Shown: piece after piece, positions 1 through 20,238 of the stretch
How the letters are laid out: every line of letters starts with the position of its first letter
Numbering within the stretch: position 1 is the stretch's first letter
Assembly (NCBI GenBank): GCA_030679895.1
Contig: JAUXSN010000003.1
Span: 5,517-69,516 of the forward strand
DNA: 64,000 bases
Direction: 5' to 3'
Source of the DNA: Candidatus Moraniibacteriota bacterium
Lineage (GTDB): Bacteria; Patescibacteriota; Minisyncoccia; Moranbacterales; UBA11712
Program-made: the position numbers and the translations under genes
The notes under the pieces: generated by a model
What the model was told of the DNA's origin: nothing
Databases searched by the model: none
The model's input: the letters and a program-made list of their open reading frames with translations, nothing else

Positions 1-896
1 ACAAAGACCGGGGAAAGTTCTTTGGAGCTGTAGTATTCGTCCATGGCGCAAAGGCCGGCACAAATTTCGTCCAAAAAACAAGCTTCGCATTTTTTCGGCT
101 TGTCGCGATAAAAATTCTCCTGCACGACCAATCCCCTGCCGTCCAAAAAATACAGGGGACGCAGTTCGTTTTTTACGATTTTTCTCGTCTCCGTCGAAAC
201 GTGCTCGAACCCGGGCATATAGCAAAGCGGCACCCTTTCAATTCGGAAAGTTTTTTTGTTTTTTTCCAGGATTTTGGCCATCCTGACAAGTTCGATTTCA
301 AAATCGGAAAATTTGGGAATTGTGTCCGTGTTTTCCCTGGCTCGCTCCGAAGTCGGGTCAAGATTATTGCAGCTAAAATGGCCGACAAAAGGATAATTCC
401 GGATGATGAATTCCACCAATGAGCTGAGATGGTCGGCGTTATACTTATTGAAAGTGATGTTTATGTCAACTCTCACCTCTTTCATCCCCGACAAATGGCC
501 GAGTGTTTTTTTGATGTTTTCGAGCGAATCTTCTTTTTTGGAAAGAAAGGCCTGGATCTTCGGACGATGGGAATAGATGGAAACATGGACGTGCCTGAGT
601 CCCGCTTTCGCCAAAGACCGGAGATATTTCTTGTCCGCTGTTTTCTGGGCGTTGGTTATCATCTTTGTCTCAATTTTTTTCTTTGAGCAATATCGGATCA
701 GATCGCGAAGGTGTGGATATTTGGTCGGCTCCCCTCCCGTCAGAATCAAGCCGTCATAACCTTTTTTTTGATAAGTATCCACCAGCTTTTTCGCGCTCGC
801 CAAAGACATATCCTTCCACCCCGACGGAGGATTCGAACAAAAACGGCATTCCTGGTCGCATTCTCTGGTTATTTGGATGTAAGCAAAGTTGGCCAT
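1..896 (-). CDS. radical SAM domain protein (partial; C-terminus runs off window start)
   Basis: Manual translation of minus strand gives uninterrupted frame from ATG at 894-896 to window edge: MANFAYIQITRECDQECRFCSN...GLILTGGEPT...C-terminal CEACFLDEICAGLC; CxxxCxxC rSAM motif + GGEPT glycine-rich motif, same architecture as downstream ~300 aa rSAMs. Not in ORF track because no stop inside window. Confidence 0.6.
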   Translation of the reverse strand, partial: MANFAYIQITRECDQECRFCSNPPSGWKDMSLASAKKLVDTYQKKGYDGLILTGGEPTKYPHLRDLIRYCSKKKIETKMITNAQKTADKKYLRSLAKAGLRHVHVSIYSHRPKIQAFLSKKEDSLENIKKTLGHLSGMKEVRVDINITFNKYNADHLSSLVEFIIRNYPFVGHFSCNNLDPTSERARENTDTIPKFSDFEIELVRMAKILEKNKKTFRIERVPLCYMPGFEHVSTETRKIVKNELRPLYFLDGRGLVVQENFYRDKPKKCEACFLDEICAGLCAMDEYYSSKELSPVF

Positions 897-903
897 AATA
901 TTT

Positions 904-1842
904 TTAGCGATGGTTTTTTTTCAAATACTTCCGAATGTCCCCGAAAAATCGGCGGTAAGGCGAGGGCAGAACTTCTTTCACCGGCTTATATCTCAGCCTC
1001 AAAGCCGTGTAAAAAAACAGGAACGAATCAAGCTGCTCCATGTCTTTCCGAGAAAAACGGAGGGAGGGCAGCAACTTGCGGTTGATGCTGTTCATATATC
1101 TTATAAGATTCGCGACATCTCTTGTGTTGTCGTGGGCCGTCCGAAAAATTTCGAAACGGAGATCGTCAAGCCCGACGCTGTCGAAATCAATCATTAAGAG
1201 CTTTTTTTTGTGATAAACCAGATTCTTGTCAGTGCAATCTCCATGGCAGACTTTCAGATCCTTGTATACTGCAAAGTATTCATTCGCTTTTTTTTCCAAT
1301 TCGTCAAAATCATTGAAAAAAATTTTAAGCTTTTTCCTATGTTCATTGTCGCCCAAAACTTCCCTAAATTCAACTTCGTGTCTTTTGAATTTTTCGGCGT
1401 TTAGTTTTTTTGCAAGGCGTTTGTCGGAATTGACAATGTTATAAAAAGAAGAAAACAAGCTGATTTCTTTCCCTCTTTTGTTCTTTACTTTGGAAAGATC
1501 GCTTTTGACAAAAGGGAAGAGCTGGACCGCGGAATCGTTTTTATGTGTGACAAAACCGCCGCGTTTGTTTCTTGCCGGATAAAGAGCGGGAAATTTTTTT
1601 TTCAAAAGAAGATCATAAAGATCGTTTAGTAATGCCATATTTCCAAAATCGCTGGCTCCCACTTTCAAAAACCATTCCCGCCCCTCTTCGTCTTTTAGGA
1701 TAAAGTGGTTTGGCCTCACTCTGTTTTTGTAGTAAAACGGGCTCAGGTCTGAAATTTTTATGCCGGAATAATCTTCGGACACTGTTTGTTTTATGAATTT
1801 TTCCATTTTCATTGGCATATTATTTTTGTTAAATAGTGGCAA
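904..1842 (-). CDS. protein-kinase-like phosphotransferase (APH/choline-kinase fold)
   Basis: 312 aa ORF; motifs VCHGDCTDKNLV (cf. HGDxxxxN catalytic loop) and LMIDFDSVG (cf. IDFD/DxG Mg-binding) typical of aminoglycoside/homoserine-kinase-type phosphotransferases; embedded between rSAM genes on same strand. Confidence 0.5.
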   Translation of the reverse strand: MPLFNKNNMPMKMEKFIKQTVSEDYSGIKISDLSPFYYKNRVRPNHFILKDEEGREWFLKVGASDFGNMALLNDLYDLLLKKKFPALYPARNKRGGFVTHKNDSAVQLFPFVKSDLSKVKNKRGKEISLFSSFYNIVNSDKRLAKKLNAEKFKRHEVEFREVLGDNEHRKKLKIFFNDFDELEKKANEYFAVYKDLKVCHGDCTDKNLVYHKKKLLMIDFDSVGLDDLRFEIFRTAHDNTRDVANLIRYMNSINRKLLPSLRFSRKDMEQLDSFLFFYTALRLRYKPVKEVLPSPYRRFFGDIRKYLKKNHR

Positions 1843-1853
1843 ATTTTGGCGTC

Positions 1854-4055
1854 TTATTTTTTGGATAATTCCCCGTAGCGCCGATGCAAGAAAGTTTTCA
1901 AAGCGGGAGAAATTGACTTAAAAGGTTTTATCTCCTTATCCCCGTAAAGATCCAGGTATAATTTAGGAACACCTCTGCAAAAATAAGATAATTTGCAATT
2001 TTCACATTTCGATGATTTCGAAAGACGGCCTCTAGCTGTATCACTATAACGATTATAAGTCGAGTCTTCAATAGCTACACCATTTGATGAAATCTTAACG
2101 ACCGCGCTTCTAAGAGCAGGTAAAAAAAGTTCATTAAATTTTTTATTGTCTTTAGCGAACAAAATTTTCAAATATGAATCAGGGAGAACGCAAAAGGGAA
2201 TGTCGAACTTCGCCCTTGGCATGAAAGCTTCCTTATTCAATATCATTCTTATGTCAGCATACCGAGGGCAGACCCGGCCATAATCGGTCGCGTCGGAGTT
2301 CACCGGCCTGACTTTTCTGAAGTCAATCCTGCGAAGTTTTAGTTTTTTTACAATAAATTTATAGATGTCCGGAACAACTGAATAATTTTGTTTCAGCAAA
2401 AGGGAGTGCAGAACTATTTCGACATTCGGATTTTTTTTCAAGTTTTTGATCGCGTTCATCAGTTTATTGAAGCTCCCTTTCGTTCTTGTTATCTGATCAT
2501 GTATTTTTTGGTTTTGGCCATAAATAGGCAATTCAAATCTACCAACGCCCGAGCGCACAATCAAATTTGTGAAAGATCCAGACGCCAGTTCCATCCCCGT
2601 TGTTTCCAAAGATATCTTTTTAAATCCGATTTTTTTCGCGTGCCTGATAATCTGCAAAATTCCGTCGCATTTTAAGGGTTCATTTCCTCCTATGCACAAC
2701 CGCACAGCATCGGGATAACACTCCCTGATGAGCAAGAGATAGAATTTCAAATCGTCGAGATCAAAAACAACTTTTTCATTTTTCATCTTGGAAATTTTGT
2801 CCCGGGAAGAAACAGCTCCCGAGCAAAAAACGCAATTGAGGTCACAATGGGAAACGCCGCTCAGACTCAGCAAGATGCTTGAGTTTTCAGCTATCTCAGC
2901 TGAGAAGGGTCTTAGCATTTTCAAGCCGTTCTCTTTTGCGAAATCGGCCGGCACGCCGTCACATTTTTTGTCGAATTTGCATATATTGCATTTTTGCCCT
3001 TTGGCAAAAAATCTGAAATTTATAAAAAAATAAAAAAAATCAAATATACCGCCTCCTGACAGCTCGCGAATTTTTTTGGAATCGTAGCGACCCGGATTTT
3101 TTTTTGGATAGCAGAAACTATTTTTGAAATTAAGCTTTTTGTCTTGCACCAATTCGCGCAAATCGCGGCAAAATTCATCGGCCGGACAGTGCCGGCACCT
3201 TTCCTCGAAGCAGGGAATTTTTCCTTTTCCGAAAATAAATTCATTAAACATTCCTTCCCAGCATCCCAATACCGTATAGGGATCGAAGGGATAGTGGAAA
3301 AATTTTTCCAAATGATCTAGATACTTTGACGGATATCCATCCAGCTCAACGGTTATGTTCTTTTCGACAGAAAATTTGAGGACTTTTCTTATATAGGACA
3401 TATCCTCATTCGGCCTTGTTATTAGACTGTCACGATTTTTCCAGGCTCTCCCAAGAGGTAAAATTCTGTGCAAATATAATTTATTTATTCCTAATTTTTC
3501 AAAATATTCGACCATTTCAAGCAAATGAAAGAAATTGAGTTTGTTGACTACGACAGAGATATTGACTTTCAAATTTTTCATCTTTATGGCATTTTGCAGT
3601 CCCGCGAACGTTTGCTTGAATGATCCCTTTATTTGAGATTGGGATTCATGCAGTTCTTTGGAATGTCCGTGAATCGAGAAAGTTATTTCGTCCATTCCGT
3701 TGTTGGCCGCCGACATCAAAAAATCGTGATAGGCAAACATTCTTCCATTGGTAACAACTTGAACATGCGAGTAGCCCATTTTTTTAGCCGCACCGATAAT
3801 TTCTATAAAATCCGGATGGATGGTCGGCTCGCCTCCGGAAAAAATGACTTCCTTGATCTTTTTTCCTCTGCCTTCCAGTAATTTATTTTTAATTTCCTGC
3901 TTGGATATTATGGATCCATCCTGATTATCGCTATCCAAACAAAAAAGGCACTTGTTATTGCAAGTTTTTGTCAGCCGGATCCAATGCTTTCGTCCTATCG
4001 AATCCTTCTCTCGACTGGCAATACTGCGGTGTTTCAATATTTTTTTTCTCTCCAT
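1854..4055 (-). CDS. fused tandem double radical SAM protein
   Basis: 733 aa; N-terminal rSAM domain (CNNKCLFCLD, GGEPTIHPDF, C-terminal CRHCPADEFC) plus second rSAM domain (CDLNCVFCSG, GGNEPLKCDG, C-terminal CENCKLSYFCRGVP); paralog of 4066..6141. Confidence 0.75.
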   Translation of the reverse strand: MERKKILKHRSIASREKDSIGRKHWIRLTKTCNNKCLFCLDSDNQDGSIISKQEIKNKLLEGRGKKIKEVIFSGGEPTIHPDFIEIIGAAKKMGYSHVQVVTNGRMFAYHDFLMSAANNGMDEITFSIHGHSKELHESQSQIKGSFKQTFAGLQNAIKMKNLKVNISVVVNKLNFFHLLEMVEYFEKLGINKLYLHRILPLGRAWKNRDSLITRPNEDMSYIRKVLKFSVEKNITVELDGYPSKYLDHLEKFFHYPFDPYTVLGCWEGMFNEFIFGKGKIPCFEERCRHCPADEFCRDLRELVQDKKLNFKNSFCYPKKNPGRYDSKKIRELSGGGIFDFFYFFINFRFFAKGQKCNICKFDKKCDGVPADFAKENGLKMLRPFSAEIAENSSILLSLSGVSHCDLNCVFCSGAVSSRDKISKMKNEKVVFDLDDLKFYLLLIRECYPDAVRLCIGGNEPLKCDGILQIIRHAKKIGFKKISLETTGMELASGSFTNLIVRSGVGRFELPIYGQNQKIHDQITRTKGSFNKLMNAIKNLKKNPNVEIVLHSLLLKQNYSVVPDIYKFIVKKLKLRRIDFRKVRPVNSDATDYGRVCPRYADIRMILNKEAFMPRAKFDIPFCVLPDSYLKILFAKDNKKFNELFLPALRSAVVKISSNGVAIEDSTYNRYSDTARGRLSKSSKCENCKLSYFCRGVPKLYLDLYGDKEIKPFKSISPALKTFLHRRYGELSKK

Positions 4056-4065
4056 CGAATAATAC

Positions 4066-6141
4066 TCACCGCTTAGAATGATTTTTTATGGGCGTGAATT
4101 CGGAATCACCGTATAAATTGAGGTAGGCTTCAGGGACTCCCTGGCAATAGCTGTCTAATTCACATTTTTCACATTTTTCGCATTTGGAAAAACCGGCTGG
4201 TTTCGTCTCTTGATCGCCAAAGTCATTTACTTTTATACCCGCCGCGGAAATTCTCACCATCTTGATAGAATTGTCGAAAAGATCGCGCCTTCTGTCGGCC
4301 GGCAAAAGGCAAAAGGGCAGCTCGATTCTGGCCCCGGGTGCCAGCTTGGCACCGCTGAATGCTTTTTTGATTTCAGAATAACGGGGACAATTTCGCGCAT
4401 AATCCGCCAAATCGCTGCTTCGAGGCAATAGTTTTCTGAAACTCAATTTTCCGACGCCTAGATTCCTAGTGACATAATCATGGATCTCAAGAACAAACGA
4501 ATAATTTTTTTTCAGAAGCAATGTGCGCATCTCTATTTCAACTCCCGGATAATCTTTTAGGATTTTCACCGCCTTAATCAGACGGGAAAAACTTCCCTTT
4601 CTGCCCGTTATTGAATCGTGCAATTTGGCGTTATGGCCGTAAATAGGCAACCTGAAACTCCTCACGCCCGCACCGATCAACTCTTTGACTTTTTTTTCGT
4701 CGACCAGCCCAAAGCCGGTGCTGGACAAGGCAATTTCCCGAAAACCCAATTTTTTCGCGTATCCGACCAGTTCGACCAAGTCGGGACAATTGAGAGGTTC
4801 GTCTCCGGTGACAATCAATTTCCCCGCCGAAAAAAATTTTCGGGCTTCGGCCAAATTTCGTTTTATTTTTTCCAAACCGGGATGATGTTCTTCATTTTTC
4901 TTGGGACGCAAAGTCCGGAAACAAAATATGCAGCGCAAATCGCATTTCGTTATTTCCTTGAGATCAAGGAAAAACTCCGTATTTTTTCCCCTTCCCGAAA
5001 CCAAGGGTTTCAGAATTTTCAATCCTTTTTCTATGACATAATCGCAAGGGGCGCCGTCGCATTTTTTTTTCAGATCGCAAAATTCGCATTTTTCGCTTTT
5101 GATGAAATATCTGTTGTCGATGAAGAAGTCCAACAGACGGAAGAGGCTGGCTTGGAGATTTTTTTTGTTTATTTTGATTGTCTTTTCTTCCATTTTATCC
5201 GGAACACAAATAGGCATTTTTTTGGAAACCAGCTTTCCTTCTTTTTTGAAACGGATCAGGTCGTCGCAAAAATCGCCAAGGAAGCAATGGACGCATCTTT
5301 CTCCACGGCAGGACATTTTTCGCCCGTTCTTCAAAAAATCTTCGAACATTCTTTGTCTTCCCTTTACTTCATCATGCATCTTTTTCGGATTTTGAATCAG
5401 ATCCTCAAAGCCTTCAAGATACCGGGGAGGAAACCTATTGGTCCAGATGAATATTTCCCGATTTTTTGAAAATTGAAAGGCCTCTTTCAAGTTTGGCAGG
5501 GCTTTTTCGATGTCATAAAACAATTTATTTCTGTTTTCCCAGGCTCTGCCAAAAGGAATGATTTGGAGAAGATCAAACTCTCGCACGCCAAAATTGATGA
5601 AATATTTGAGGATATCCGCCAAATTTTCAACATTCATTCCGTTTATAACAATATCCTGATTGACAATCAGGCCGTCAACGACAAGCGCGTTTTTGAGACC
5701 GATTAGCGCTTGTTTGAATGACCCTTTGATTTGCGTGAGGCTGTCATGAAGTTCTTCCGTATGGCCATGGATGGAAAAAGTTATTTCATTAACACCCGCT
5801 CTGATGGAAGAAATAAGAAAATCCCGATAAGCAAACATTCGGCCGTTTGTTATGACTTGAATATGCTTGTATCCCATATCTTTCGCCATTTTGACAATTT
5901 CAATGAATTCCGGATGAATGGTTGCTTCTCCGCCACTCAGAACAACCTGATCGATTTTTTTCTTTCTGCCTTCTCGAAATTTTTCCCTGATTTCATCTTG
6001 AGTCAAAACAGTTCCGTTCTGTGCTTCTTTGTCCAGACAAAAAATACAGTTGTTGTTGCAAACTCTAGTCAAACGAACCCAATGCTTTTTTTTCGCGGCC
6101 GCCTGCTCTTTTTTTTCGATTTTCAGGAAGTTTTTTTTCAT
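4066..6141 (-). CDS. fused tandem double radical SAM protein (paralog of 1854..4055)
   Basis: 691 aa; CNNNCIFCLD + GGEATIHPEF and second domain CDLRCIFCFR + C-terminal CEKCEKCELDSYCQGVP; collinear with neighbour. Confidence 0.75.
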   Translation of the reverse strand: MKKNFLKIEKKEQAAAKKKHWVRLTRVCNNNCIFCLDKEAQNGTVLTQDEIREKFREGRKKKIDQVVLSGGEATIHPEFIEIVKMAKDMGYKHIQVITNGRMFAYRDFLISSIRAGVNEITFSIHGHTEELHDSLTQIKGSFKQALIGLKNALVVDGLIVNQDIVINGMNVENLADILKYFINFGVREFDLLQIIPFGRAWENRNKLFYDIEKALPNLKEAFQFSKNREIFIWTNRFPPRYLEGFEDLIQNPKKMHDEVKGRQRMFEDFLKNGRKMSCRGERCVHCFLGDFCDDLIRFKKEGKLVSKKMPICVPDKMEEKTIKINKKNLQASLFRLLDFFIDNRYFIKSEKCEFCDLKKKCDGAPCDYVIEKGLKILKPLVSGRGKNTEFFLDLKEITKCDLRCIFCFRTLRPKKNEEHHPGLEKIKRNLAEARKFFSAGKLIVTGDEPLNCPDLVELVGYAKKLGFREIALSSTGFGLVDEKKVKELIGAGVRSFRLPIYGHNAKLHDSITGRKGSFSRLIKAVKILKDYPGVEIEMRTLLLKKNYSFVLEIHDYVTRNLGVGKLSFRKLLPRSSDLADYARNCPRYSEIKKAFSGAKLAPGARIELPFCLLPADRRRDLFDNSIKMVRISAAGIKVNDFGDQETKPAGFSKCEKCEKCELDSYCQGVPEAYLNLYGDSEFTPIKNHSKR

Positions 6142-6158
6142 ATCAGCGTGGGAAAAAT

Positions 6159-8515: not shown

Positions 8516-8524
8516 ACTGGTTTT

Positions 8525-9481: not shown

Positions 9482-10878
9482 TTCTTTCTTTCGTTATTTT
9501 TTTCGATCATTTTTTTCCTAATATCATTTTCACTAAAAAAGAACATGCAAGCGGCAAAGCGATCAATCGGTTCCTCCGGGAAAAAAACCCGATCTCCTTG
9601 GAATCTTATCTTCCCTATTTTTTTCAAGCCGTTTATTCCGTCGGCAAAAATTTCTTTGAAATCCGCTCCGAAATGCTTCGCGAAACCTTTTCGAGAAAAG
9701 CACCGCTCATGAGATAGTTTTTGCAGGATAAAGTTTCTCATCTCCCCCCGCTCGCCCAGCCTGACAGCTTTGTAGTCAAGACTATTTGAGTTGAAATTGA
9801 AATTGTCTCTCCCGTCTTTTGTGTAGTAATATTGCAAATCCTTGAAAATATAGGCGTTTGCCCGGCTACCGAGCGCGAAAAGGGACTGAGAACTTGAAGG
9901 GGAAGGCGAGAAATTATACACGTTTCCCAAAATTTTTTTATTCTTGAGCAAAAATTTATATCCGATAGAGTCATAGACCACGAATTTTGACTCAATCATT
10001 TCATAATTATGCTTATCCGCTTCGGCCTTAAACTGTTTTTTAATTTTCCTGAACTTTTCGCTTATTTTTTTTCTCTCCCGGCTCTGAAAACTTTCCGAGC
10101 GGAGCCCAAAATAGCCATTCGGGGGACGAAAACGATAGACGATTATCGAATCCGGCCGTAAGTCGGCCAGGCCGGAAAAACTGCTCAGAATCGAACTAGC
10201 ATCGTCTCCTCGCAAGCCGACCATCAAATCAACGTTTATTTCAAATTTCAATTTTCGGGCGCTTTGGATCACCTCTTTTATCTTGGAAAACTCTTGATAT
10301 CCGCGCAAAGCGGAGTTTAGCACATTTTTGTCCAAACTTTGAACGCCGAAGCTGATTCTGTTGAAGCCGAAATCTTTTATTATTTTCAGCTTTTTTTTAT
10401 CAATGCTTTCTGGGTTTCCTTCAAAAGTTTTTTCTCCCCGTTTCTCGAAACTGAAATACTTTTTCAGATTTCCCACGAGTTCCATGAGTTGTTTTTCCGA
10501 CAAAATAGACGGAGTTCCTCCGCCGATATATAGATTGTCTATTTTTTTACTCTTAAAAACTTCTCGGAAAAAAGAAATTTGTTTTTTTAAATTTTTCAAA
10601 TAACTTTCAATCTCCCTGTCGACCGGAACTTTCGAAAAATACGGGCAATAATTGCATTTGGATCGGCAAAATGGAATATGAACATAAAAATTCAAGATTT
10701 CTTTCGAACTCTCTTTTGAATCCAGATGGATATTCCAATGATTCCTTATCTGTCCGGCGCTCAGGACGCATTCTTCTCCGAACCAGCGGATAAGATCCGT
10801 CAGAAAAAAATTGTCATAAAAAGACTTATGATTCGATAAAAAAAATTTGTATGAATTGTATCTTTCCTGAGAGTTCAT
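9478..10878 (-). CDS. HemN-like radical SAM protein (paralog of 6159..7577)
   Basis: 466 aa; CRSKCNYCPY, GGGTPS; 4-nt overlap with downstream gene. Confidence 0.7.
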   Translation of the reverse strand: MNSQERYNSYKFFLSNHKSFYDNFFLTDLIRWFGEECVLSAGQIRNHWNIHLDSKESSKEILNFYVHIPFCRSKCNYCPYFSKVPVDREIESYLKNLKKQISFFREVFKSKKIDNLYIGGGTPSILSEKQLMELVGNLKKYFSFEKRGEKTFEGNPESIDKKKLKIIKDFGFNRISFGVQSLDKNVLNSALRGYQEFSKIKEVIQSARKLKFEINVDLMVGLRGDDASSILSSFSGLADLRPDSIIVYRFRPPNGYFGLRSESFQSRERKKISEKFRKIKKQFKAEADKHNYEMIESKFVVYDSIGYKFLLKNKKILGNVYNFSPSPSSSQSLFALGSRANAYIFKDLQYYYTKDGRDNFNFNSNSLDYKAVRLGERGEMRNFILQKLSHERCFSRKGFAKHFGADFKEIFADGINGLKKIGKIRFQGDRVFFPEEPIDRFAACMFFFSENDIRKKMIEKNNERKK

Positions 10879-10895
10879 GCTGGCAACTTTTTATG

Positions 10896-11792
10896 TCATT
10901 TGAGTCCGACAGCCCTAAATTCTTTCCAGCCAAATTTTTCCGGATATTCCCGCCACGGACCTTCACATATCGCGTTGTGACGGCATTTGGCGCACTGCGG
11001 ACCTTTCATCTTCCCTTCTTTCCGACGAGCTTCGGCGAAATCTTCAACCACCGATTTGAAGTCGTATATTTTGGTCGGCGGAATATATTTTTCTGCCACG
11101 TAGTCTTCATAGCCTTTCATAAAACAAAATGGAATGGCTTCGGTCATCACGACTTTTTTCTTTTTTATGCCGATGTCCAATCCCGCTTTCACATAGGGTT
11201 CCGTCAGAGCCATCCTCGGCACAATGGATTCAAAATTTTCCCCTGCGTTTCCGGTCGCGTGAACAAAAGCGAATTGATATTGATCAACGTCTAAAGAGAC
11301 CAGAAGTTCTGCTATTTCCGGCAAATGCCGGTAATTAGACCTGGTTATCACTGTGTTGGTAATAACTTCCTGACCGAGCAATTTCAGGTTCCTTATCCCC
11401 TGCACCGTTTGCGCGAAACTTCCCCGAGCGGTGGTCAGATAATCATGGAGTTCTCCAATGTGCCCATGCAGAGCTGGTGAAAATTCGGTCGCTCCCGCCC
11501 TGATGGTTTTTTTGCAAAAGTCCGGATAGGAAAACATCCTGCCGTTGCTTTGAATTTGAATTAGTTTAAAACCGATATTTTTCGCAAAGCTTACAAGGCT
11601 GAGAAAGTCAGGTCTTATTGTCGGCTCTCCTCCCGTAAACACAATTCCGTCGCACTCGGCTACGGCTTCTTTCATTTCTTTTTTTATTTGCTTAATATCC
11701 TTATCTTTGAATTGGATCCTTTTTCTCCCCTGCACGCAAAAAAGGCAATGGTTGTTGCAAGAAAATCCAACTTTTAGATCCGCTTTTTTCAT
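10896..11792 (-). CDS. radical SAM protein with C-terminal Cys cluster
   Basis: 298 aa; CNNHCLFCVQ, TGGEPTIRP, C-terminal CAKCRHNAICEGPW. Confidence 0.75.
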   Translation of the reverse strand: MKKADLKVGFSCNNHCLFCVQGRKRIQFKDKDIKQIKKEMKEAVAECDGIVFTGGEPTIRPDFLSLVSFAKNIGFKLIQIQSNGRMFSYPDFCKKTIRAGATEFSPALHGHIGELHDYLTTARGSFAQTVQGIRNLKLLGQEVITNTVITRSNYRHLPEIAELLVSLDVDQYQFAFVHATGNAGENFESIVPRMALTEPYVKAGLDIGIKKKKVVMTEAIPFCFMKGYEDYVAEKYIPPTKIYDFKSVVEDFAEARRKEGKMKGPQCAKCRHNAICEGPWREYPEKFGWKEFRAVGLK

Positions 11793-12700
11793 AAAGATGA
11801 AATTTTATCCACAAAATCGCTAAGAGCCCTGTCGACTTTCCTCGTGGAATCCAAAATCTGCCTAGAAAAGGTTCTTTTGAAAAGAAAATCGAAATCGAAC
11901 TCCAGGGGAAACTGAACAATGCTTTTCCAGTCATTCGTGTTTTGAATATTACCTAATTTCAATTCTTTCCGCCAGCCCGAAAAGCGCTTGTCCAGAAAAA
12001 AATTTCCGAAATACACATCCCCTTCGGGATCAATAACCGGGGACATATTAAACAAAGGCACGGGCGAAAATGATTTAATATTTTTTACCTGGATGCCGTC
12101 TGGATGGGATTTTATTTCCTTCTCAATGACTTTGAAATTGTCACGGAGAGAACTTATGCTTTTTTCGGACCAATCCGTATAATAAGCCGGCAAAAAATTG
12201 AATCGCCTAAATCCTTTTTTTCTTAGTTCCGAAAAAAGATCTTTTGACTGCCTCATGTTGTCCGGCAAAAGATTGATATTGACCGTCATGAGCGGAAGGC
12301 GTGATATGTTTTTTATGAATTCATCGTCATCGAATATTTTTGAGTAACTGGAACTTATGATAATTTCAAAATTTGGAAATTTTTTGAGATAGTCTGCGAT
12401 TTTTTTGTCGAGAAGCAATCCATTCGTCGTGAGATTGAAATCCGCTTTTTTCGCTTTTTTTCCTAATCGCGCCACGAGTCCCTTTACCAAACCGAAATTG
12501 AGAAGCGGCTCCCCCCCAAAAAAACGAATAAGAGGCCTCACGGAACGATTATTTTTCCCCTCTAAAAACAAAGAAGCAGCCCTTGAAGCCGTTTCTAAGT
12601 TCATGCTTCTATTTGTTTTTCTTACCTGGCAATGACTGCAATTCAGATTGCACTTTAGGGTTGTCACCAAAACCAAACTTTGATCATCGAGTTTCGACAT
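11789..12700 (-). CDS. radical SAM protein
   Basis: 303 aa; CNLNCSHCQV, FGGEPLLN; resembles second domain of the fused double rSAMs; 4-nt overlap (ATGA) with downstream gene. Confidence 0.7.
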   Translation of the reverse strand: MSKLDDQSLVLVTTLKCNLNCSHCQVRKTNRSMNLETASRAASLFLEGKNNRSVRPLIRFFGGEPLLNFGLVKGLVARLGKKAKKADFNLTTNGLLLDKKIADYLKKFPNFEIIISSSYSKIFDDDEFIKNISRLPLMTVNINLLPDNMRQSKDLFSELRKKGFRRFNFLPAYYTDWSEKSISSLRDNFKVIEKEIKSHPDGIQVKNIKSFSPVPLFNMSPVIDPEGDVYFGNFFLDKRFSGWRKELKLGNIQNTNDWKSIVQFPLEFDFDFLFKRTFSRQILDSTRKVDRALSDFVDKISSL

Positions 12701-12781
12701 TGATAGCTGAAAAATAATTGATGCAGAATTTTTTTTCTTATTTTTTTATTTTCGGAAATTATTCAGCCAAGGATCTGGATA

Positions 12782-13063
12782 TTACCAGCTGCCGTGAGAA
12801 CCATGCGATCCGTGAGCTCCGTGCGATCCGTGCGATCCGTGCGATCCGTGAGATCCGTGAGATCCGTGAGAAGCATGGGCACAAGTCGCATTGGCCAGTT
12901 TCTCATTCGGCTTCATTATCCCTGCCAGAACTGCGGCGCTGGCGACCACCACCATTCCGATTTTCATCACGCTTTCCTTGCTAATATTCCCTTCTTCGCT
13001 GGTCAAGAAGGCCTGGATGTTCTTTTTTATCTTAGGTATCCTTGTTTTTTTTGATTCACTCAT
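12782..13063 (-). CDS. His-Gly-Ser (His-Xaa-Ser-type) repeat precursor peptide; probable true start at internal ATG (12967) with signal-peptide-like N-terminus
   Basis: ORF ends ...ANATCAHASHGSHGSHGSHGSHGSHGAHGSHGSHGSW; internal ATG (MKIGMVVVASAAVLAGIM..., 61 aa) is preceded by AAGGAAAG 5 nt upstream, the 13063 start has no SD; sits in middle of rSAM operon. HxsA (His-Xaa-Ser repeat protein) analogy from recollection of TIGRFAMs Hxs system. Confidence 0.6.
   Translation of the reverse strand: MSESKKTRIPKIKKNIQAFLTSEEGNISKESVMKIGMVVVASAAVLAGIMKPNEKLANATCAHASHGSHGSHGSHGSHGSHGAHGSHGSHGSW
12803..12872. repeat. 9-bp tandem repeat (cgtgcgatc/cgtgagatc, ~8 units) encoding the HGS repeats
   Basis: Direct reading: catgcgatccgtgagctccgtgcgatccgtgcgatccgtgcgatccgtgagatccgtgagatccgtgagaagc. 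Confidence 0.9.
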
Positions 13064-13088
13064 AAATTAAGATTAGATCTTAAAAATT

Positions 13089-14099
13089 TTATTTTGCTCC
13101 GGTAGCTTCGAAAAGCAGTTGGAGACGGTCTAGATTATAATAATCGTCGCATTTTTCCTCGCTGAAGTTCAACATTTTCCGACAGTCGAAATTAGGATCA
13201 AAATATAGCTTATAAACGCTATAATAGTCGCGGTGGGAAATTTCTTCCAGTATCGCCGGATTATTGTCTCTCACAGTTCTCGCAAAATAAGCAAGCTGAA
13301 AACATTTATACCAAAGGTCTTCTCCCACTCCACCCTGCTCGACCGATCCCCCTTGCGAAGCCCTGGGAAGATTTTTCATGACGTCGCAGGCCGCATAATC
13401 TCTCTTGTTTATGGCAAGGCACAATGCCTGAGTCAAGGAACCTTTGGGAAAACTCGCGCAATCGCTCTCTGATTTACTCATGACCAACGATTGGCACAGA
13501 TTTTGGCAATCATCCTCTCCTGAATTTTTGCAAGCCTGGACAAATTCGACCGAGCAATTTCCTGCTTTCATGCTTGGTAATATACTTTCGAGATACAGCT
13601 TGACCCTGTATTCACAATGCGACAATACCATCGGATCCGGAATACTTTTGCAGTATCCGATATTCTTTTCCTTTATGGCAGAGCAAATTAGAAAATTTTC
13701 TGTTTTGAACGGATTTATTCTAAACATTTCGGAGGCCAGGAGAATAATATCTTTTGTTTCTTTTCCGGAAAGACCTTCAAGCCTTTTCTTGCAAGCGTCT
13801 CTCTCCGCCCAAAAATAGGTTTCCACTTCCTGCCGGCTTTTCCCCTTCAATTTTTCTGTTTCGAAAGAAACATCTGCCTGACTTTTTTGCTCATATGGCG
13901 AAGGTTCCATGATCTCGGCGGGAACAGCCAAGAGCGCTTTTTTATTTTGAGAAGGAATATCCTCTATTGTTTTATGCGGAATATTTTGAGAGTCGTTGCT
14001 AAAAAATAAATATTTTACTCCCAAAAACAACCCGGCCAAAACCAGCAAGACAACGAATGCGATTAATACTTCCTTTAGTTTTTTATTTTCGATTACCAT
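13089..14099 (-). CDS. membrane-anchored Cys-rich protein of unknown function (cluster-associated)
   Basis: 336 aa; N-terminal TM helix (LIAFVVLLVLAGLFLGV), >20 Cys in extracytoplasmic part; between precursor and rSAM/SPASM gene. Confidence 0.5.
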   Translation of the reverse strand: MVIENKKLKEVLIAFVVLLVLAGLFLGVKYLFFSNDSQNIPHKTIEDIPSQNKKALLAVPAEIMEPSPYEQKSQADVSFETEKLKGKSRQEVETYFWAERDACKKRLEGLSGKETKDIILLASEMFRINPFKTENFLICSAIKEKNIGYCKSIPDPMVLSHCEYRVKLYLESILPSMKAGNCSVEFVQACKNSGEDDCQNLCQSLVMSKSESDCASFPKGSLTQALCLAINKRDYAACDVMKNLPRASQGGSVEQGGVGEDLWYKCFQLAYFARTVRDNNPAILEEISHRDYYSVYKLYFDPNFDCRKMLNFSEEKCDDYYNLDRLQLLFEATGAK

Positions 14100-14185
14100 T
14101 TTGATTATTTATATCATAAATTACAAACCTAGAAAAGACAATAAACAGCAAAGTGCTTCGGCGTTCGTATTTTTTGAAAAAGGTA

Positions 14186-15688
14186 TCAGTCCGGTATTTT
14201 CTGATAATTTTTTTTACTGCACTCTATTTCTTTTTTTGCCCATTTTTCAAGGATCTTTTTCTTCTTTTTGTCTTTCAAGTAGCTGAAAATCAGGTCAAAA
14301 ATAGATTTGTTTATTATGCATCTCAGGCTGTTGGGCTGTTGGCAAAAAACATTTCCGGTTTCAGCAAAGTTGTGGATGGGACAAATTCCGCAATAAGGCT
14401 GATAAACGCAGTGCGAACAGCCCGCCTGGCAACTTGTCTCCGAGGCTACACACATGCTCTTCAGGGCCGGGCTGTCGATGATTTCCGAATAAACGTTTTG
14501 GGCGACGGTTCCCAGTCTAAACATTTCTTGCCCTGAGTAGCCCATCATTCTGCCTTCATCGCAAGTATAAATATCACCATTGAAATCATAGGCAAGTTGT
14601 CCGATCCCGGCTCCGCAAGGAGAACGGAGCTCCAGATAATTCGGATCGTCATCCGTCAAAATCTTTGAAACAACAATTGAGGCCGTCCTTTCATAAAATC
14701 TTTTTCCCGACTGGTTGATTTCCAAAATATAATCCAGAGCTTTTTTATAGAAATCAAGATATTCTTGAGGCTTATATCCCATCTTTGACCAAGCTTTTCC
14801 GGCTGTTCCCAACGGGCTCAAGGGACGGAGAAATATAGTATCAAAACCCCATTTTAAATATTCATCCACTATTTCTTTCGGGTGCTCAAGAGAGAATCGA
14901 CTCACCGTAACGAGTGCTCCGGGCTGAAAAAAATAATATTTCCCTCTAATTTTCTTCCGCTCAATCCTCCGGTATTCATCCATGGCTTGCTTCAGCCATT
15001 TTGTCGTTTCCTCATAGCTGTTTTTGCGGGGAAGCGGGCGATTTCTGTTATGAATAGCTTCCGGACCGTCGAGCGAGGTGCAAAGCGCCACGTGATTTCT
15101 GAAGAAAAAACGCAGTTTCTCCTTGTCCATCAGGGAAAAATTGGAAACGAGTCGGAGCTCCAGGCTTTTTTTCTCGATTTTATTTTTTTCTTTGGCATAT
15201 TCAACAATAAACTTGACTATCGGCCAATTAAGAAGAGGCTCCCCTCCCTGAAACTCAATGGCGACGTTGTTATTCGGCGTGCTGAAAATAAAATCGACTA
15301 CTTGCTTAGCCGTTCCAAGGCTCATGTCAAATTGGGAGCTAGTCACTCCTTTCGCACTAGCCTGGCAGTAAACACAGCTGTAATTGCAGCGCAGCGTCAC
15401 AACAACGATATGAAGACTCGGCCCTCCAAAAAGATTCTGGTGTTTTTTTTGGTATTTTTCAATGTATTTGTCAAAATTTATTTTGTCGCGGATGAAATTT
15501 TTTTTCGCCAATTCTTTGTAGGACGCACTTTTTGAGCTGATTTTTCCCTCGATGAATTTTCCAAAATTATTTTCGTCCAAAAAAGCGTATTCTCCCGCAT
15601 CATTCGTGAGAAGATATTCTTTTCCCAACTTTCTATAACGGAAAAAGCCTACTGTTGAGTGATCTATCTTATCCGGATTGAATTTCAT
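14186..15688 (-). CDS. radical SAM/SPASM-domain peptide maturase (HxsB/HxsC-like)
   Basis: 500 aa; CNYSCVYCQA rSAM motif, FQGGEPLLN, SPASM-type C-terminal clusters CGAGIGQLAYDFNGDIYTCDEG and CQAGCSHCVYQPYCGICP; ~90 aa N-terminal extension. Confidence 0.8.
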   Translation of the reverse strand: MKFNPDKIDHSTVGFFRYRKLGKEYLLTNDAGEYAFLDENNFGKFIEGKISSKSASYKELAKKNFIRDKINFDKYIEKYQKKHQNLFGGPSLHIVVVTLRCNYSCVYCQASAKGVTSSQFDMSLGTAKQVVDFIFSTPNNNVAIEFQGGEPLLNWPIVKFIVEYAKEKNKIEKKSLELRLVSNFSLMDKEKLRFFFRNHVALCTSLDGPEAIHNRNRPLPRKNSYEETTKWLKQAMDEYRRIERKKIRGKYYFFQPGALVTVSRFSLEHPKEIVDEYLKWGFDTIFLRPLSPLGTAGKAWSKMGYKPQEYLDFYKKALDYILEINQSGKRFYERTASIVVSKILTDDDPNYLELRSPCGAGIGQLAYDFNGDIYTCDEGRMMGYSGQEMFRLGTVAQNVYSEIIDSPALKSMCVASETSCQAGCSHCVYQPYCGICPIHNFAETGNVFCQQPNSLRCIINKSIFDLIFSYLKDKKKKKILEKWAKKEIECSKKNYQKIPD

Positions 15689-15711
15689 AAGTCGTCAATT
15701 TTCAAAAAGAC

Positions 15712-15915
15712 TTAGCGCGCTCCTTTTCTCAGTCCCAAAACATAATTTCCAAATTCATCTTCCAGAAAATTATTATGCTCGGACTTTTTTGGCTTTATTT
15801 TGACTAAATAATACTTATTTTTTTCAGCCATCTGAAGATCCGCAATCTTTTTATATCTCTTGACGGCTTCTTTTATGGCTTCTTGGCTGTAAAGACTTTT
15901 GCTAAACTTTTTCAT
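15712..15915 (-). CDS. small hypothetical protein
   Basis: 67 aa Lys-rich ORF, same strand, tightly spaced in operon. Confidence 0.35.
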   Translation of the reverse strand: MKKFSKSLYSQEAIKEAVKRYKKIADLQMAEKNKYYLVKIKPKKSEHNNFLEDEFGNYVLGLRKGAR

Positions 15916-15924
15916 TGCATTTTG

Positions 15925-16383
15925 TTACTTATTCTTTTTTTGTTTTTCTTTGGCTTTTTTAGCATGCTTTTCTTCCCAAGGGACAGCGATTTCCAAAGGA
16001 TCTTCTCGCCAATCAACCGTCTCTTCTTCAGACCTTGAAGATTGGGCGATGACATTGCTTGGCAGACTTGACACCAGAGAAGCGGCTACTATATATTCTC
16101 TTATTTTCTGGTTATTTTTCGCAACTTCTATCCGAAGAAGATAATTCAAAAGTTCATTGAGAAACTCTCCTTTGAGCGCTTCCAGCTGCTTTTTGTCCAA
16201 TCTTTCTTTTCCTTTCAGCGAAATGAGTATTTCTTTTTCCGGATCGCCGTCGAGATGAACATAGACCCTATCTATAAACACATAGGCCGCATTGAGTATC
16301 GCCTCCAGCGGATAGTTTTTACTATTTAGCCGAAAAACGATTTGATTTTCCTTTATATTGATTTTACTTTTTGGATTTTGCAT
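15925..16383 (-). CDS. hypothetical protein (first gene of rSAM operon; possible HxsD-like accessory)
   Basis: 152 aa ORF, no recognisable motif; position only. Confidence 0.45.
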   Translation of the reverse strand: MQNPKSKINIKENQIVFRLNSKNYPLEAILNAAYVFIDRVYVHLDGDPEKEILISLKGKERLDKKQLEALKGEFLNELLNYLLRIEVAKNNQKIREYIVAASLVSSLPSNVIAQSSRSEEETVDWREDPLEIAVPWEEKHAKKAKEKQKKNK

Positions 16384-16464
16384 AAAATTTAACTGCTAAA
16401 GAAATTTATCTACGATTAACTCTATCACAGCGCCATAGAAACGACAATACCTCAAAAAAAGAGT

Positions 16465-18241: not shown

Positions 18242-18247
18242 CAAAAA

Positions 18248-18290: not shown

Positions 18291-18302
18291 TGACTAAACA
18301 TA

Positions 18303-19635: not shown

Positions 19636-19645
19636 ATATTTTTGG

Positions 19646-20230: not shown

Positions 20231-20238
20231 CCATTTTT

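What the first reader, a model, noticed from the sequence alone, without database searches (positions are those of the whole stretch)
1..16383. Expanded radical-SAM mega-operon around a His-Gly-Ser repeat precursor (Hxs-like, about ten rSAM genes)
Seen in sequence:
- One minus-strand array runs from 16383 down to the window edge with only 4- to 90-nt spacers; several start/stop overlaps are ATGA.
- It holds ten genes with CxxxCxxC radical SAM motifs, twelve rSAM domains in total: five roughly 300-aa rSAMs with a C-terminal CxxCx5C cluster, two fused double-rSAM proteins, two HemN-like rSAMs, and one 500-aa rSAM/SPASM maturase.
- Embedded among them are a kinase-fold phosphotransferase, a Cys-rich membrane protein, and a small ORF ending in ...SHGSHGSHGSHGSHGAHGSHGSHGSW.

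Established knowledge (recalled, not searched): TIGRFAMs describe a 'His-Xaa-Ser system' with a repeat protein HxsA, two radical SAM maturases HxsB and HxsC, and HxsD.

Inference: here X is Gly, and the enzyme set is expanded about five-fold. I am not aware of any characterised RiPP-like cluster with this many rSAM enzymes per precursor. This suggests iterative or multi-site radical chemistry, for example C-methylation by the HemN-like enzymes, crosslinking or epimerisation on the repeat units, possibly combined with Ser phosphorylation.
Basis: partly seen in the sequence, partly recalled or inferred. Interest (0 to 1): 0.92.

Follow-up and report, generated by a model that had tools for sequence, protein, structure and literature searches.

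The report
Ten-enzyme His-Gly-Ser peptide maturation operon
A small-genome bacterium (Candidatus Moranbacteria) carries a 17-kb operon in which at least ten radical-SAM enzymes surround one short His-Gly-Ser repeat peptide; it is a much enlarged, uncharacterised relative of the four-gene HXS system recently shown to block phage DNA entry, and such enlarged versions turn out to be common in several little-studied phyla.

Summary
One minus-strand operon (window edge to 16383, probably to 17520) holds ten radical-SAM (rSAM) genes with twelve rSAM domains, a 93-aa precursor ending in (SHG)9-W, two HxsD-type proteins, a Cys-rich membrane protein and a kinase-like gene.

Curated NCBIfam models place it in the His-Xaa-Ser (Hxs) family. 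HxsB, HxsD, HxsD-like and HxsA4 pass their cut-offs. No protein passes the HxsC or HxsC4 cut-off, so the eight HxsC-like domains are distant paralogs (21-42% identity to each other).

The window comes from an NCBI Candidatus Moranbacteria MAG where PGAP already names HxsB and HxsD. The architecture is not unique:
- Of 51 species-level HxsB loci, the median has 4 further rSAM genes within 10 kb downstream (range 0-8).
- Loci seeded independently on the double-rSAM gene nearly always carry HxsB, HxsD or HxsA and 5-12 rSAM genes.
- Precursor tail type covaries with the accessory enzyme set.
- The kinase is lineage-specific.
- A close relative shows the array continues past the window edge.

Most likely this is a leader-guided, multi-step radical maturation of an exported (SHG)n peptide. 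Function is unproven; envelope-level phage defence is suggested by analogy with E. coli HXS. I rate it a new variant of a known kind, interest about 0.65.

The parts
3..896 (-). HxsC-like radical SAM gene ('edgeC'). It is cut by the window edge and is 315 aa when complete. It has CDQECRFC and a C-terminal CEACFLDEIC.
   Evidence: best family HxsC, 92.7 bits, below cut-off. The full length is seen in L002. It has reciprocal-best orthologs at 48-78% identity in 10 of 46 loci. This type is usually placed directly after a dbl-type rSAM (37 of 61 cases).
904..1812 (-). Kinase-like (APH/RIO-type) protein, 302 aa from the ATG at 1812. The ORF extends to a TTG at 1842.
   Evidence: Pfam APH 24.2 bits against a cut-off of 23.2, plus weak RIO1 and Bud32 hits. 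The motifs HGDCTDKN and IDFD are present. Only 84-85% identical homologs were found in 5.8 billion proteins. It is absent from all other Hxs loci. It sits inside the otherwise conserved dbl-edgeC gene pair.
1854..4055 (-). Fused double radical SAM protein, 733 aa: two HxsC-like domains and three CxxCx5C motifs.
   Evidence: two Radical_SAM stretches; HxsC4 221 bits. It is 40% identical over its full length to the next gene. Homologs of 686-1003 aa occur in other Hxs loci.
4066..6141 (-). Second fused double radical SAM protein, 691 aa.
   Evidence: Its N-terminal half has reciprocal-best orthologs (median 48% identity) as stand-alone rSAMs of about 380-450 aa in 16 of 46 loci.
6159..7577 (-). 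HemN-like radical SAM protein, 472 aa.
   Evidence: best matches are STM4012 family, HemZ, HemN and ChuW/HutW, all below cut-off. It is 30% identical to the other HemN-like gene.
7574..8515 (-). HxsC-like radical SAM protein, 313 aa, with C-terminal CAECRFFDSC.
   Evidence: HxsC4 205.6 bits over the full model length, against a cut-off of 500. Its start overlaps the next gene by 4 nt.
8525..9481 (-). HxsC-like radical SAM protein, 318 aa, with C-terminal CLRCSKKDFC.
   Evidence: HxsC4 87 bits and HxsC 85 bits.
9478..10878 (-). HemN-like radical SAM protein, 466 aa.
   Evidence: The closest solved structures are HemN (1OLT) and the class C methyltransferase NocN (9P2U), with similar scores.
10896..11792 (-). 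HxsC-like radical SAM protein, 298 aa; the probable functional equivalent of HxsC.
   Evidence: HxsC4 164 bits and HxsC 107 bits. It is the most conserved accessory rSAM, with reciprocal-best orthologs in 32 of 46 loci at median 48% identity. It is the best match to a canonical HxsC (E 6e-14, 23% identity).
11789..12700 (-). Radical SAM protein, 303 aa, related to the N-terminal half of HxsB. It has no SPASM domain and no C-terminal Cys motif.
   Evidence: PapB, CcpM and HxsB N-terminal matches only. It is 30-34% identical to HxsB. It has positional orthologs directly after HxsA in L003, L012, L083 and L085.
12782..13063 (-). Precursor HxsA4, 93 aa: a basic N-terminus with FLTSEEGNI, a hydrophobic helix at residues 35-51, the linker ...LANATC, (SHG)9 and a terminal Trp.
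   Evidence: NF038313 HxsA4 59.4 bits against a cut-off of 55. The same architecture occurs in more than 40 species. There are 319 clusters at E<=1e-3 among 1.84 billion representatives.
12792..12871 (.). 9-nt tandem repeat (8.9 copies, 87% matches) encoding the SHG units.
13089..14099 (-). Cys-rich membrane-anchored protein, 336 aa, with 14 Cys and an N-terminal transmembrane helix.
   Evidence: No family match was found. A Cys-rich protein with a signal or transmembrane segment sits next to HxsA in L003, L005, L012, L083 and L085.
14186..15688 (-). HxsB, a radical SAM/SPASM maturase, 500 aa.
   Evidence: TIGR03978 538.5 bits against a cut-off of 370. PGAP names it HxsB. It is 39% identical to a canonical plasmid HxsB. 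The closest solved structure is CteB (5WGG).
15712..15915 (-). HxsD-like small protein, 67 aa.
   Evidence: NF038315 72.7 bits against a cut-off of 41. PGAP calls it 'HxsD-like protein'.
15925..16383 (-). HxsD, 152 aa.
   Evidence: TIGR03976 64.0 bits against a cut-off of 50. Pfam HxsD PF27806 was found on the same protein.
16465..17520 (-). Possible first gene of the operon: a secreted Cys-rich protein, 351 aa, with 21 Cys and three W-x-W-x-C modules.
   Evidence: Homologs lie directly upstream of HxsD in L003 and L010. No family match was found. Membership of the system is inferred from position only.

Best explanation
This is a His-Xaa-Ser (Hxs) family peptide-maturation operon of the short-precursor 'HxsA4' type, with a greatly enlarged set of tailoring enzymes.

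Proposed mechanism:
1. The 93-aa precursor is made in the cytoplasm.
2. Its conserved N-terminal leader (K-rich, FL(T/S)SEEGKI) is recognised by the core machinery. That core is HxsB (rSAM/SPASM), HxsD with the HxsD-like protein, and the HxsC-equivalent encoded at 10896-11792.
3. The core performs radical chemistry on the His and Ser residues of the SHG repeats. This follows the E. coli system, where HxsB, HxsC and HxsD are needed for a +8 Da change on an SHRSS repeat.
4. The further old paralogs each add a distinct or site-specific modification. These are six more HxsC-like domains, one HxsB-N-like rSAM and two HemN-like rSAMs. The HemN-like enzymes possibly transfer C1 units.
5. The hydrophobic segment followed by an AxA-type site then takes the modified His-rich tail across the membrane, where it is released or stays anchored. 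It may work together with the adjacent Cys-rich membrane protein.

By analogy with E. coli HXS, the product most likely acts at the cell envelope, possibly as a barrier to phage DNA entry.

What is shown: family membership, operon structure, conservation, and covariation between precursor and enzyme set. What is inferred: substrate recognition, the chemistry, export and biological role.
For: Curated cut-offs are passed by HxsB, HxsD, HxsD-like and HxsA4.

The genes form a tight co-directional operon with three 4-nt overlaps.

All twelve rSAM domains keep the CxxxCxxC and GGE-type motifs. The paralogs are 21-42% identical, so they are old and specialised rather than recent copies.

Synteny was recovered from two independent seeds:
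- Among HxsB-seeded loci from 80 species, the 51 with at least 9 kb of downstream sequence have a median of 4 extra rSAM genes within 10 kb downstream (range 0-8).
- Of double-rSAM-seeded metagenome loci, 20 of 24 that are at least 15 kb long contain HxsB, HxsD or HxsA.

Orthogroups are conserved: HxsB in 46 of 46 loci, HxsD in 39, the 10896-type rSAM in 32, and the double-N-type rSAM in 16.

Precursor architecture is conserved across phyla.

The accessory enzyme set covaries with the precursor tail. Extra short HxsB-like rSAMs accompany Cys-containing GGWC tails in 21 of 23 loci, against 3 of 31 for W/Y tails (Fisher p = 8e-10).

The precursor has a transmembrane-capable segment (Kyte-Doolittle 2.06) preceded by a basic N-terminus.

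Experimental precedent comes from PMC13128918. [quoted passage not shown]
Against: - No protein reaches the HxsC (267.9) or HxsC4 (500) cut-off; identity to a canonical HxsC is only 20-25%.
- HxsA4 lacks the peptidoglycan-binding domain and the Arg-rich repeats of the characterised HxsA. The proposed electrostatic DNA-binding mode therefore may not transfer.
- No defence genes flank the locus. The neighbours are an ECF sigma factor, ftsZ, ftsA, topA and nrdD. PADLOC gives only generic rSAM similarity.
- Export is inferred from hydropathy alone.
- The covariation test is not corrected for phylogeny.
- No product or transcript data exist.
Confidence: 0.65

Rival explanations
1. The operon makes a secreted RiPP natural product, such as a heavily modified His-rich peptide acting as a metal-binding compound, signal or antimicrobial. 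It would not be an anti-phage effector. The enzymology is the same as in the main explanation; only the biological role differs.
For: - The precursor is short (93 aa) with a leader-core layout and no peptidoglycan-binding domain.
- The mature tail would be about 34 aa with 10 His and almost no net charge, which suits metal binding better than DNA binding.
- There is no defence-island context.
- HxsB's nearest solved relatives are RiPP maturases (CteB) and anSME.
- A Cys-rich exported partner is conserved next to the precursor.
Against: - No transporter, peptidase or immunity gene was seen in the window part of the operon.
- The only experimentally studied family member is a defence system (PMC13128918).
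- The distribution is patchy across many phyla, which fits either role.
Confidence: 0.3
2. The rSAM array is a separate pathway for a small-molecule cofactor that merely sits next to a minimal Hxs module. This follows the proposal of a tetrapyrrole-type cofactor for rSAM-rich clusters around Group VI nitrogenase-like genes in Elusimicrobia.
For: - Meheust et al. (bioRxiv 10.1101/765248) reported up to 13 rSAM genes beside the nitrogenase paralog, including HemN_C and B12 fusions.
- One of their genomes (GWA2_69_24) is locus L035 here.
- HemN-like genes are present in the window.
- NifH/D/K-like genes lie within 10 kb of HxsB in six loci.
Against: - The window has no nitrogenase-like or tetrapyrrole gene in or near the operon.
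- Eight of the twelve rSAM domains are HxsC paralogs.
- The genes overlap within one operon that also contains HxsA.
- The double-rSAM seed recovers Hxs markers in 20 of 24 long loci.
- The accessory enzyme type tracks the precursor tail.
- Where nitrogenase-like genes occur, they are embedded inside the Hxs operon on the same strand. This argues that they belong to the Hxs system rather than the reverse.
Confidence: 0.08
3. The array is a pile of redundant or decaying duplicates with no added function beyond a standard Hxs system.
For: There are many similar-sized paralogs in tandem, and gene content varies between loci.
Against: - Paralogs are only 21-42% identical.
- All retain cluster-binding and SAM motifs, and the reading frames are uninterrupted.
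- Several have orthologs at 48-78% identity in other species.
- A bacterium of a lineage known for very small genomes (my own knowledge) keeps about 17 kb for this locus.
Confidence: 0.03

Closest known systems
Canonical HXS anti-phage system HxsD-HxsB-HxsC-HxsA of E. coli and Klebsiella (Li et al., Nat Commun 2026, PMC13128918); TIGR03976-TIGR03979 (Haft and Basu 2011, recalled, paper not held)
   Same: - HxsB is orthologous: 39% identity to a plasmid HxsB and it passes TIGR03978.
- HxsD is present.
- The substrate is a His-x-Ser repeat protein with an N-terminal hydrophobic export-type segment.
- The rSAM partners are of the HxsC superfamily and share the C-terminal CxxCx5C.
   Different: - The published survey found four genes in 99.8% of systems. 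Here there are ten rSAM genes (at least eleven in the lineage), two HxsD-type proteins, a Cys-rich membrane protein and a kinase-like gene.
- Gene order is D-D'-B-X-A-rSAMs rather than D-B-C-A.
- The precursor is 93 aa with X = Gly and nine repeats, a conserved FLTSEEG leader, no peptidoglycan-binding domain and no Arg-rich repeats.
- No protein meets the HxsC cut-off.
- The host is a Patescibacterium, not a member of Pseudomonadota.
NCBIfam variant models HxsA2, HxsA3, HxsA4 (NF038296, NF038309, NF038313), HxsC4 (NF038332) and HxsD-like (NF038315)
   Same: The precursor passes HxsA4 and the 67-aa protein passes HxsD-like. The curators have therefore already recognised this precursor type. PGAP names HxsB, HxsD and HxsD-like in the source record.
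   Different: - HxsC4 is not met; the best score is 221 bits against 500.
- The other nine rSAM genes are annotated only as 'radical SAM protein'.
- I found no paper describing the multi-rSAM architecture.
rSAM-rich clusters around Group VI nitrogenase-like (NFL) genes of Elusimicrobia (Meheust et al. 2020; reviewed in PMC13474568)
   Same: Both have long runs of rSAM genes, including HemN-like ones. Some of the same genomes appear among the HxsB loci found here.
   Different: Those papers do not mention Hxs and propose tetrapyrrole cofactor synthesis. The window has no NFL genes.
rSAM/SPASM RiPP and peptide-derived cofactor pathways (SCIFF/CteB, ranthipeptide PapB, PQQ, mycofactocin); named from my own knowledge
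   Same: These share a leader-bearing small precursor, an rSAM/SPASM maturase and a small partner protein.
   Different: As far as I know, those pathways use one or two rSAM enzymes per precursor, whereas here there are ten or more. The repeat substrate has no Cys in most lineages.

Membership tests
His-Xaa-Ser (Hxs) system | HxsB rSAM/SPASM maturase (TIGR03978, cut-off 370 bits) | tested here: met
   538.5 bits over the full model length for 14186-15688.
His-Xaa-Ser (Hxs) system | HxsD small protein (TIGR03976, cut-off 50; HxsD-like NF038315, cut-off 41) | tested here: met
   64.0 bits for 15925-16383 and 72.7 bits for 15712-15915. Pfam HxsD is on record for the same proteins.
His-Xaa-Ser (Hxs) system | His-Xaa-Ser repeat protein | tested here: met
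   HxsA4 NF038313 scores 59.4 against a cut-off of 55. The sequence has nine SHG/AHG units. The classic HxsA model TIGR03979 is not met (16.9 against 121.65), and HxsA3 falls just short (57.7 against 65).
His-Xaa-Ser (Hxs) system | HxsC rSAM maturase (TIGR03977, cut-off 267.9; HxsC4 NF038332, cut-off 500) | tested here: not met
   Best HxsC scores are 156.4 (double protein) and 106.8 (10896-11792). The best HxsC4 score is 221.3. These are still the top-ranking families for all eight domains. Identity to a canonical HxsC is 20-25%.
His-Xaa-Ser (Hxs) system | Four-gene layout HxsD-HxsB-HxsC-HxsA (99.6% of published systems) | tested here: not met
   The order here is HxsD, HxsD-like, HxsB, Cys-rich protein, HxsA4, then nine rSAM genes and a kinase-like gene.
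HXS anti-phage defence (functional class) | [quoted passage not shown] | tested here: not met
   HxsA4 has no peptidoglycan-binding domain, and its tail has 2 K/R against 10 His. Export and defence activity cannot be tested with these tools.
HXS anti-phage defence (functional class) | Protection against phage infection | not testable with these tools
   This needs an experiment. PADLOC 2023 holds no Hxs model.
Leader-dependent rSAM RiPP pathway | Small precursor with a conserved leader and variable core, encoded next to an rSAM/SPASM enzyme | tested here: met
   The motif K..(I/L)KK.(I/L)..FL(T/S)SEEGKI is conserved in more than 40 precursors while repeat number and tail vary. The precursor is adjacent to HxsB in nearly all loci.
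HemN-like / class C rSAM methyltransferase | Membership of a defined HemN, HemZ, HemW or ChuW equivalog | tested here: inconclusive
   Both genes score 117-152 bits against several of these models, all below cut-off. Scores are similar to HemN 1OLT and to the methyltransferase NocN 9P2U.
APH-type kinase fold | Pfam APH above threshold and the catalytic HxDxxxxN and D(F/W)D motifs | tested here: inconclusive
   APH scores 24.2 against 23.2 bits over residues 177-240 only. The motifs are present. There is no PDB sequence match, and the AlphaFold2 model is unusable (pLDDT 37).

The most novel reading that the evidence does not exclude
The four-gene HXS defence system of enterobacteria is the minimal form of a much larger, phylogenetically broad family. 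In Patescibacteria, Elusimicrobiota, Omnitrophota and Myxococcota, that family uses 5 to more than 12 specialised radical-SAM enzymes, and in some lineages nitrogenase-like reductases, on a single (SHG)n precursor. The result would be a densely modified, exported His-derived polymer. This would be the most rSAM-rich peptide pathway known. It would also give a substrate context for the orphan Group VI nitrogenase-like proteins.
Probability: 0.3. Interest if true: 0.85.

Novelty: new variant of a known kind. Interest (0 to 1): 0.65.

Why it matters
**Uncharted chemistry.** Hxs chemistry is unsolved. In the one system studied, only a +8 Da change on one repeat has been seen, and in vitro reconstitution failed. 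The expanded loci offer a natural series of simpler and richer enzyme sets, with short soluble-looking precursors, on which that chemistry could be dissected.

**Published distribution is too narrow.** The published figure is 99.7% Pseudomonadota with four genes. That view misses a large, more elaborate branch of the family.

**Weight in a small genome.** For a lineage known for very small genomes (my own knowledge), keeping at least 17 kb and ten or more iron-sulfur enzymes for one 93-aa peptide implies an important envelope or interaction function.

**Nitrogenase-like proteins.** The embedded nitrogenase-like genes in some loci suggest a testable alternative to the tetrapyrrole hypothesis for Group VI NFL proteins.

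Tried and rejected
- **Kinase structure.** AlphaFold2 on a three-sequence alignment gave pLDDT 37, so no fold search was run. A PDB sequence search found nothing. A homology search found only 84-85% identical relatives.
- **PADLOC.** It returned only generic rSAM similarity to viperins, which I do not take as evidence of defence.
- **Terminator or attenuator after the precursor gene.** The pattern scan found none in the 12701-12781 gap, and terminator-like sites across the region were no more frequent than in shuffled sequence. The RNA fold of 12690-12800 is weak (z = -2.0).
- **Repeat number against rSAM number.** There is no correlation (rho -0.09, p 0.6, n = 40).
- **Recent tandem amplification.** Rejected on 21-42% paralog identity.
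- **MoaA, NirJ or other housekeeping identity for the rSAMs.** Rejected, because these rank below HxsC/HxsC4 and far below their own cut-offs.
- **Haft and Basu 2011.** The paper could not be read.
- **JGI contig 3300075153.** No DNA was available, so its rSAM genes (at least 13, two of them double) could not be linked to an Hxs module.
- **Left side of the source contig.** I could not obtain the 73.6-kb NCBI contig itself, so the left end is inferred from the Logan contigs L002 and L087.

Full report
**What is in the window**

The ORF listing and my own translation show one uninterrupted minus-strand gene array from the left edge to 16383, and probably to 17520. In transcription order it contains:
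- a secreted Cys-rich protein (16465-17520);
- HxsD (15925-16383);
- an HxsD-like protein (15712-15915);
- HxsB (14186-15688);
- a Cys-rich membrane protein (13089-14099);
- a 93-aa precursor (12782-13063);
- an rSAM related to the N-terminal half of HxsB (11789-12700);
- an HxsC-like rSAM (10896-11792);
- a HemN-like rSAM (9478-10878);
- two HxsC-like rSAMs (8525-9481 and 7574-8515);
- a second HemN-like rSAM (6159-7577);
- two fused double rSAMs (4066-6141 and 1854-4055);
- a kinase-like protein (904-1812);
- another HxsC-like rSAM cut by the edge (3-896).

Gaps are 7-86 nt and three junctions are 4-nt overlaps. Pfam finds Radical_SAM in all ten genes, twice in each fused protein. The SHG tail is encoded by a 9-nt repeat of 8.9 copies. 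Minor corrections: only four of the five roughly 300-aa enzymes have the C-terminal CxxCx5C, and the shortest spacer is 7 nt.

**Family assignment**

Against NCBIfam, these pass their curated cut-offs:
- HxsB: 538.5 bits, cut-off 370;
- HxsD: 64.0, cut-off 50;
- HxsD-like: 72.7, cut-off 41;
- HxsA4: 59.4, cut-off 55.

Every roughly 300-aa rSAM and both double rSAMs have HxsC4 or HxsC as their best family, ahead of MoaA, NirJ, BlsE and others. None reaches the HxsC (267.9) or HxsC4 (500) cut-off. The two 470-aa enzymes are HemN-like, below every equivalog cut-off. Their closest solved structures are HemN and the class C methyltransferase NocN. HxsB's closest solved relative is the thioether-forming CteB.

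**Source**

The proteins are 100% identical to entries from an NCBI MAG labelled Candidatus Moranbacteria bacterium, on a contig of 73,621 bp. PGAP already names HxsB, HxsD and 'HxsD-like protein' there. It calls the other enzymes only 'radical SAM protein'. The rest of the window is ordinary chromosome: ftsZ, ftsA, topA, nrdD, thyA and an ECF sigma factor. It is not a defence island.

**What is known about Hxs**

A 2026 paper (PMC13128918) shows the following for the four-gene HxsD-HxsB-HxsC-HxsA system of E. coli:
- It blocks phage DNA entry.
- HxsB, HxsC and HxsD are needed for N-terminal processing, a +8 Da modification on an SHRSS repeat, and periplasmic export of HxsA.
- HxsA also has a peptidoglycan-binding domain.

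That paper reports 99.7% of systems in Pseudomonadota and 99.8% with four genes. I found no paper on HxsA4-type or multi-rSAM Hxs loci.

A canonical system on an Aeromonas plasmid gives direct comparisons:
- its HxsB is 39% identical to the window's HxsB;
- its HxsC is 20-25% identical to the window paralogs, with 10896-11792 the best match (E 6e-14), and shares the C-terminal CxxCx5C;
- its HxsA has a signal peptide, Arg/Ser-rich HxS repeats and a C-terminal domain absent from HxsA4.

**How common is the expansion?**

An HxsB alignment scanned against one genome per GTDB species returned at least 589 relatives. The best 80 loci come from Patescibacteria, Elusimicrobiota, Omnitrophota, Myxococcota, Spirochaetes and others.

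I annotated their ORFs with phmmer against the window proteins. Among 51 loci with at least 9 kb downstream of HxsB, the number of further same-strand rSAM genes within 10 kb is 0-8, median 4. The window has six complete ones, plus most of a seventh, in that span and nine in all. The nearest relative (L003, HxsB 73% identical) is syntenic gene for gene and has eight.

A second, independent seed was an alignment of double-rSAM proteins scanned against JGI metagenomes. It returned loci of which 20 of 24 that are at least 15 kb long also carry HxsB, HxsD or HxsA, with 5-12 rSAM genes each. Expanded arrays are thus the norm for this branch of the family. The window is near the upper end but is not unique.

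**Structure of the enzyme set**

Window paralogs are 21-34% identical to one another. The two fused proteins are 40% identical over their full length, so the fusion predates their duplication. The HemN-like pair is 30% identical. All twelve domains keep the cluster and SAM motifs.

Reciprocal-best-hit analysis over 46 loci gives these counts:

| Gene type | Loci with ortholog (of 46) | Median identity |
|---|---|---|
| HxsB | 46 | 46% |
| HxsD | 39 | 42% |
| 10896-type rSAM | 32 | 48% |
| N-half of the double rSAM | 16 | 48% |
| HxsA4 | 15 | 46% |
| HxsD-like | 14 | 40% |
| 11789-type rSAM | 13 | 29% |
| Edge-type rSAM | 10 | 48% |
| 8525-type rSAM | 9 | 28% |
| 7574-type, HemN1 and HemN2 | 4 each | 27-33% |
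| Kinase-like | 0 | - |

The double-N-type and edge-type genes form a conserved adjacent pair (37 of 61 cases, median gap 3 nt). In the window the kinase-like gene is inserted into that pair. Its only homologs in 5.8 billion proteins are 84-85% identical. It is therefore a lineage-specific addition, and Ser phosphorylation is not a general feature of the system.

**The precursor**

More than 40 species share the same layout:
- a basic N-terminus with K..(I/L)KK.(I/L)..FL(T/S)SEEGKI;
- a hydrophobic helix;
- a short linker, often ending A-x-A-(T)-C in Patescibacteria;
- (SHG)n with n from 4 to more than 50;
- either a terminal Trp/Tyr or a Cys-containing GGWC-type tail.

A full HMMER scan of 1.84 billion representatives finds 319 clusters at E<=1e-3, mostly full-length matches of 65-130 aa. 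In the window protein the helix scores 2.06 on Kyte-Doolittle over 17 residues. The predicted tail has 10 His and almost no net charge.

Repeat number does not correlate with rSAM number. The tail type, however, predicts the accessory enzymes. Extra short HxsB-like rSAMs accompany GGWC-type tails in 21 of 23 loci, but W/Y tails in only 3 of 31 (Fisher p = 8e-10, not corrected for phylogeny). This is the best computational evidence that the accessory enzymes act on the precursor.

**Beyond the window**

The Logan contig L002, from the same organism, shows three things:
- the edge rSAM is 315 aa when complete;
- the window cuts only about 50 bp from it;
- a further ORF starts by overlapping its stop codon.

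In an 85%-identical relative (L087) that ORF is a 338-aa DUF483-like protein with P.CC and H.PC...C motifs. It is followed by yet another HxsC-like rSAM. The lineage therefore has at least eleven rSAM genes. DUF483-like proteins recur in 13 other Hxs loci and are sometimes fused to an rSAM.

**Mechanism and alternatives**

The most likely reading is leader-guided, multi-step radical maturation of an exported (SHG)n peptide. The core is HxsB, the HxsD pair and the 10896-type HxsC equivalent, surrounded by a shell of specialised paralogs. Export and an envelope role are inferred from the hydrophobic segment, the adjacent Cys-rich exported proteins and the E. coli precedent.

A role as a secreted metal-binding or signalling peptide is a serious alternative for function. 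The reasons are that HxsA4 lacks the peptidoglycan-binding domain and basic repeats, and that there is no defence context.

A separate cofactor pathway, as proposed for rSAM-rich clusters near Group VI nitrogenase-like genes in Elusimicrobia, is unlikely here. The window has no such genes. Where they do occur, they are embedded in the Hxs operon on the same strand.

**Verdict**

The system is a new variant of a known kind. The family and precursor type are already captured by curated models and by PGAP. The multi-rSAM architecture, its breadth across phyla and its link to the newly characterised HXS system appear undescribed in the papers I could search.

Noticed in passing
L024 12664-16652; L078 12269-16795; L086 6606-10004; also L014, L032, L045: NifH/NifD/NifK-like genes (the Group VI nitrogenase-like type described in Elusimicrobia) lie within 10 kb of HxsB in six loci. 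In L024 and L078 they are embedded on the same strand between HxsB or HxsA and the HxsC-like rSAMs. The published interpretation (tetrapyrrole cofactor synthesis) does not mention Hxs.
   Followed up: partly
L087 3667-4683 and 4699-5454; L002 10034-10129 (just left of window position 1): The operon continues past the window edge with a 338-aa DUF483-like protein (motifs PKCC and HIPCHYNC) and another HxsC-like rSAM. DUF483-like proteins occur in 13 other Hxs loci and are fused to an rSAM in L050 and L164.
   Followed up: partly
window 16465-17520: This is a secreted 351-aa protein with 21 Cys and three W-x-W-x-C modules (TTWSWIC, TGWNWTC, TEWTWNC). It has no family match. Homologs sit directly upstream of HxsD in L003 and L010, so it may belong to the system.
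   Followed up: partly
(loci L003-L082): HxsB is widespread in Patescibacteria, Elusimicrobiota, Omnitrophota, Myxococcota and Spirochaetes. There are at least 589 hits among GTDB species representatives. This is at odds with the published figure of 99.7% Pseudomonadota, which was based on HxsA searches of NCBI genomes.
   Followed up: partly
L040 20262 onward: This is a 239-aa HxsA-type precursor with 53 HxS motifs, in a locus with four HemN-like genes upstream of HxsD and seven rSAM genes downstream of HxsB. It is the most extreme repeat count seen.
   Followed up: no
JGI metagenome 3300075153, contig of 22,987 bp: At least 13 radical SAM genes lie in a row, including two double rSAMs and a DUF483-like gene. 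No DNA was available, so linkage to HxsB or HxsA could not be checked.
   Followed up: no
window 18247-18291: A 20-bp-stem hairpin followed by a T run lies between two plus-strand ORFs of unknown function (17735-18241 and 18303-18839). It is by far the longest-stemmed terminator-like hairpin the scan found in positions 1-18500.
   Followed up: no
window 18922-22368: Upstream on the minus strand lie an ECF-type sigma factor (19646-20230), a 237-aa protein with no family match (18922-19635, possibly an anti-sigma factor) and a 690-aa beta-propeller protein (20296-22368). Any regulatory link to the Hxs operon is unknown.
   Followed up: no
window 1-16000 versus 16001-64000: G+C content of the operon is 0.39-0.43 (mean about 0.41), against about 0.41-0.49 for the rest of the window. 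This is a weak hint of foreign origin.
   Followed up: no
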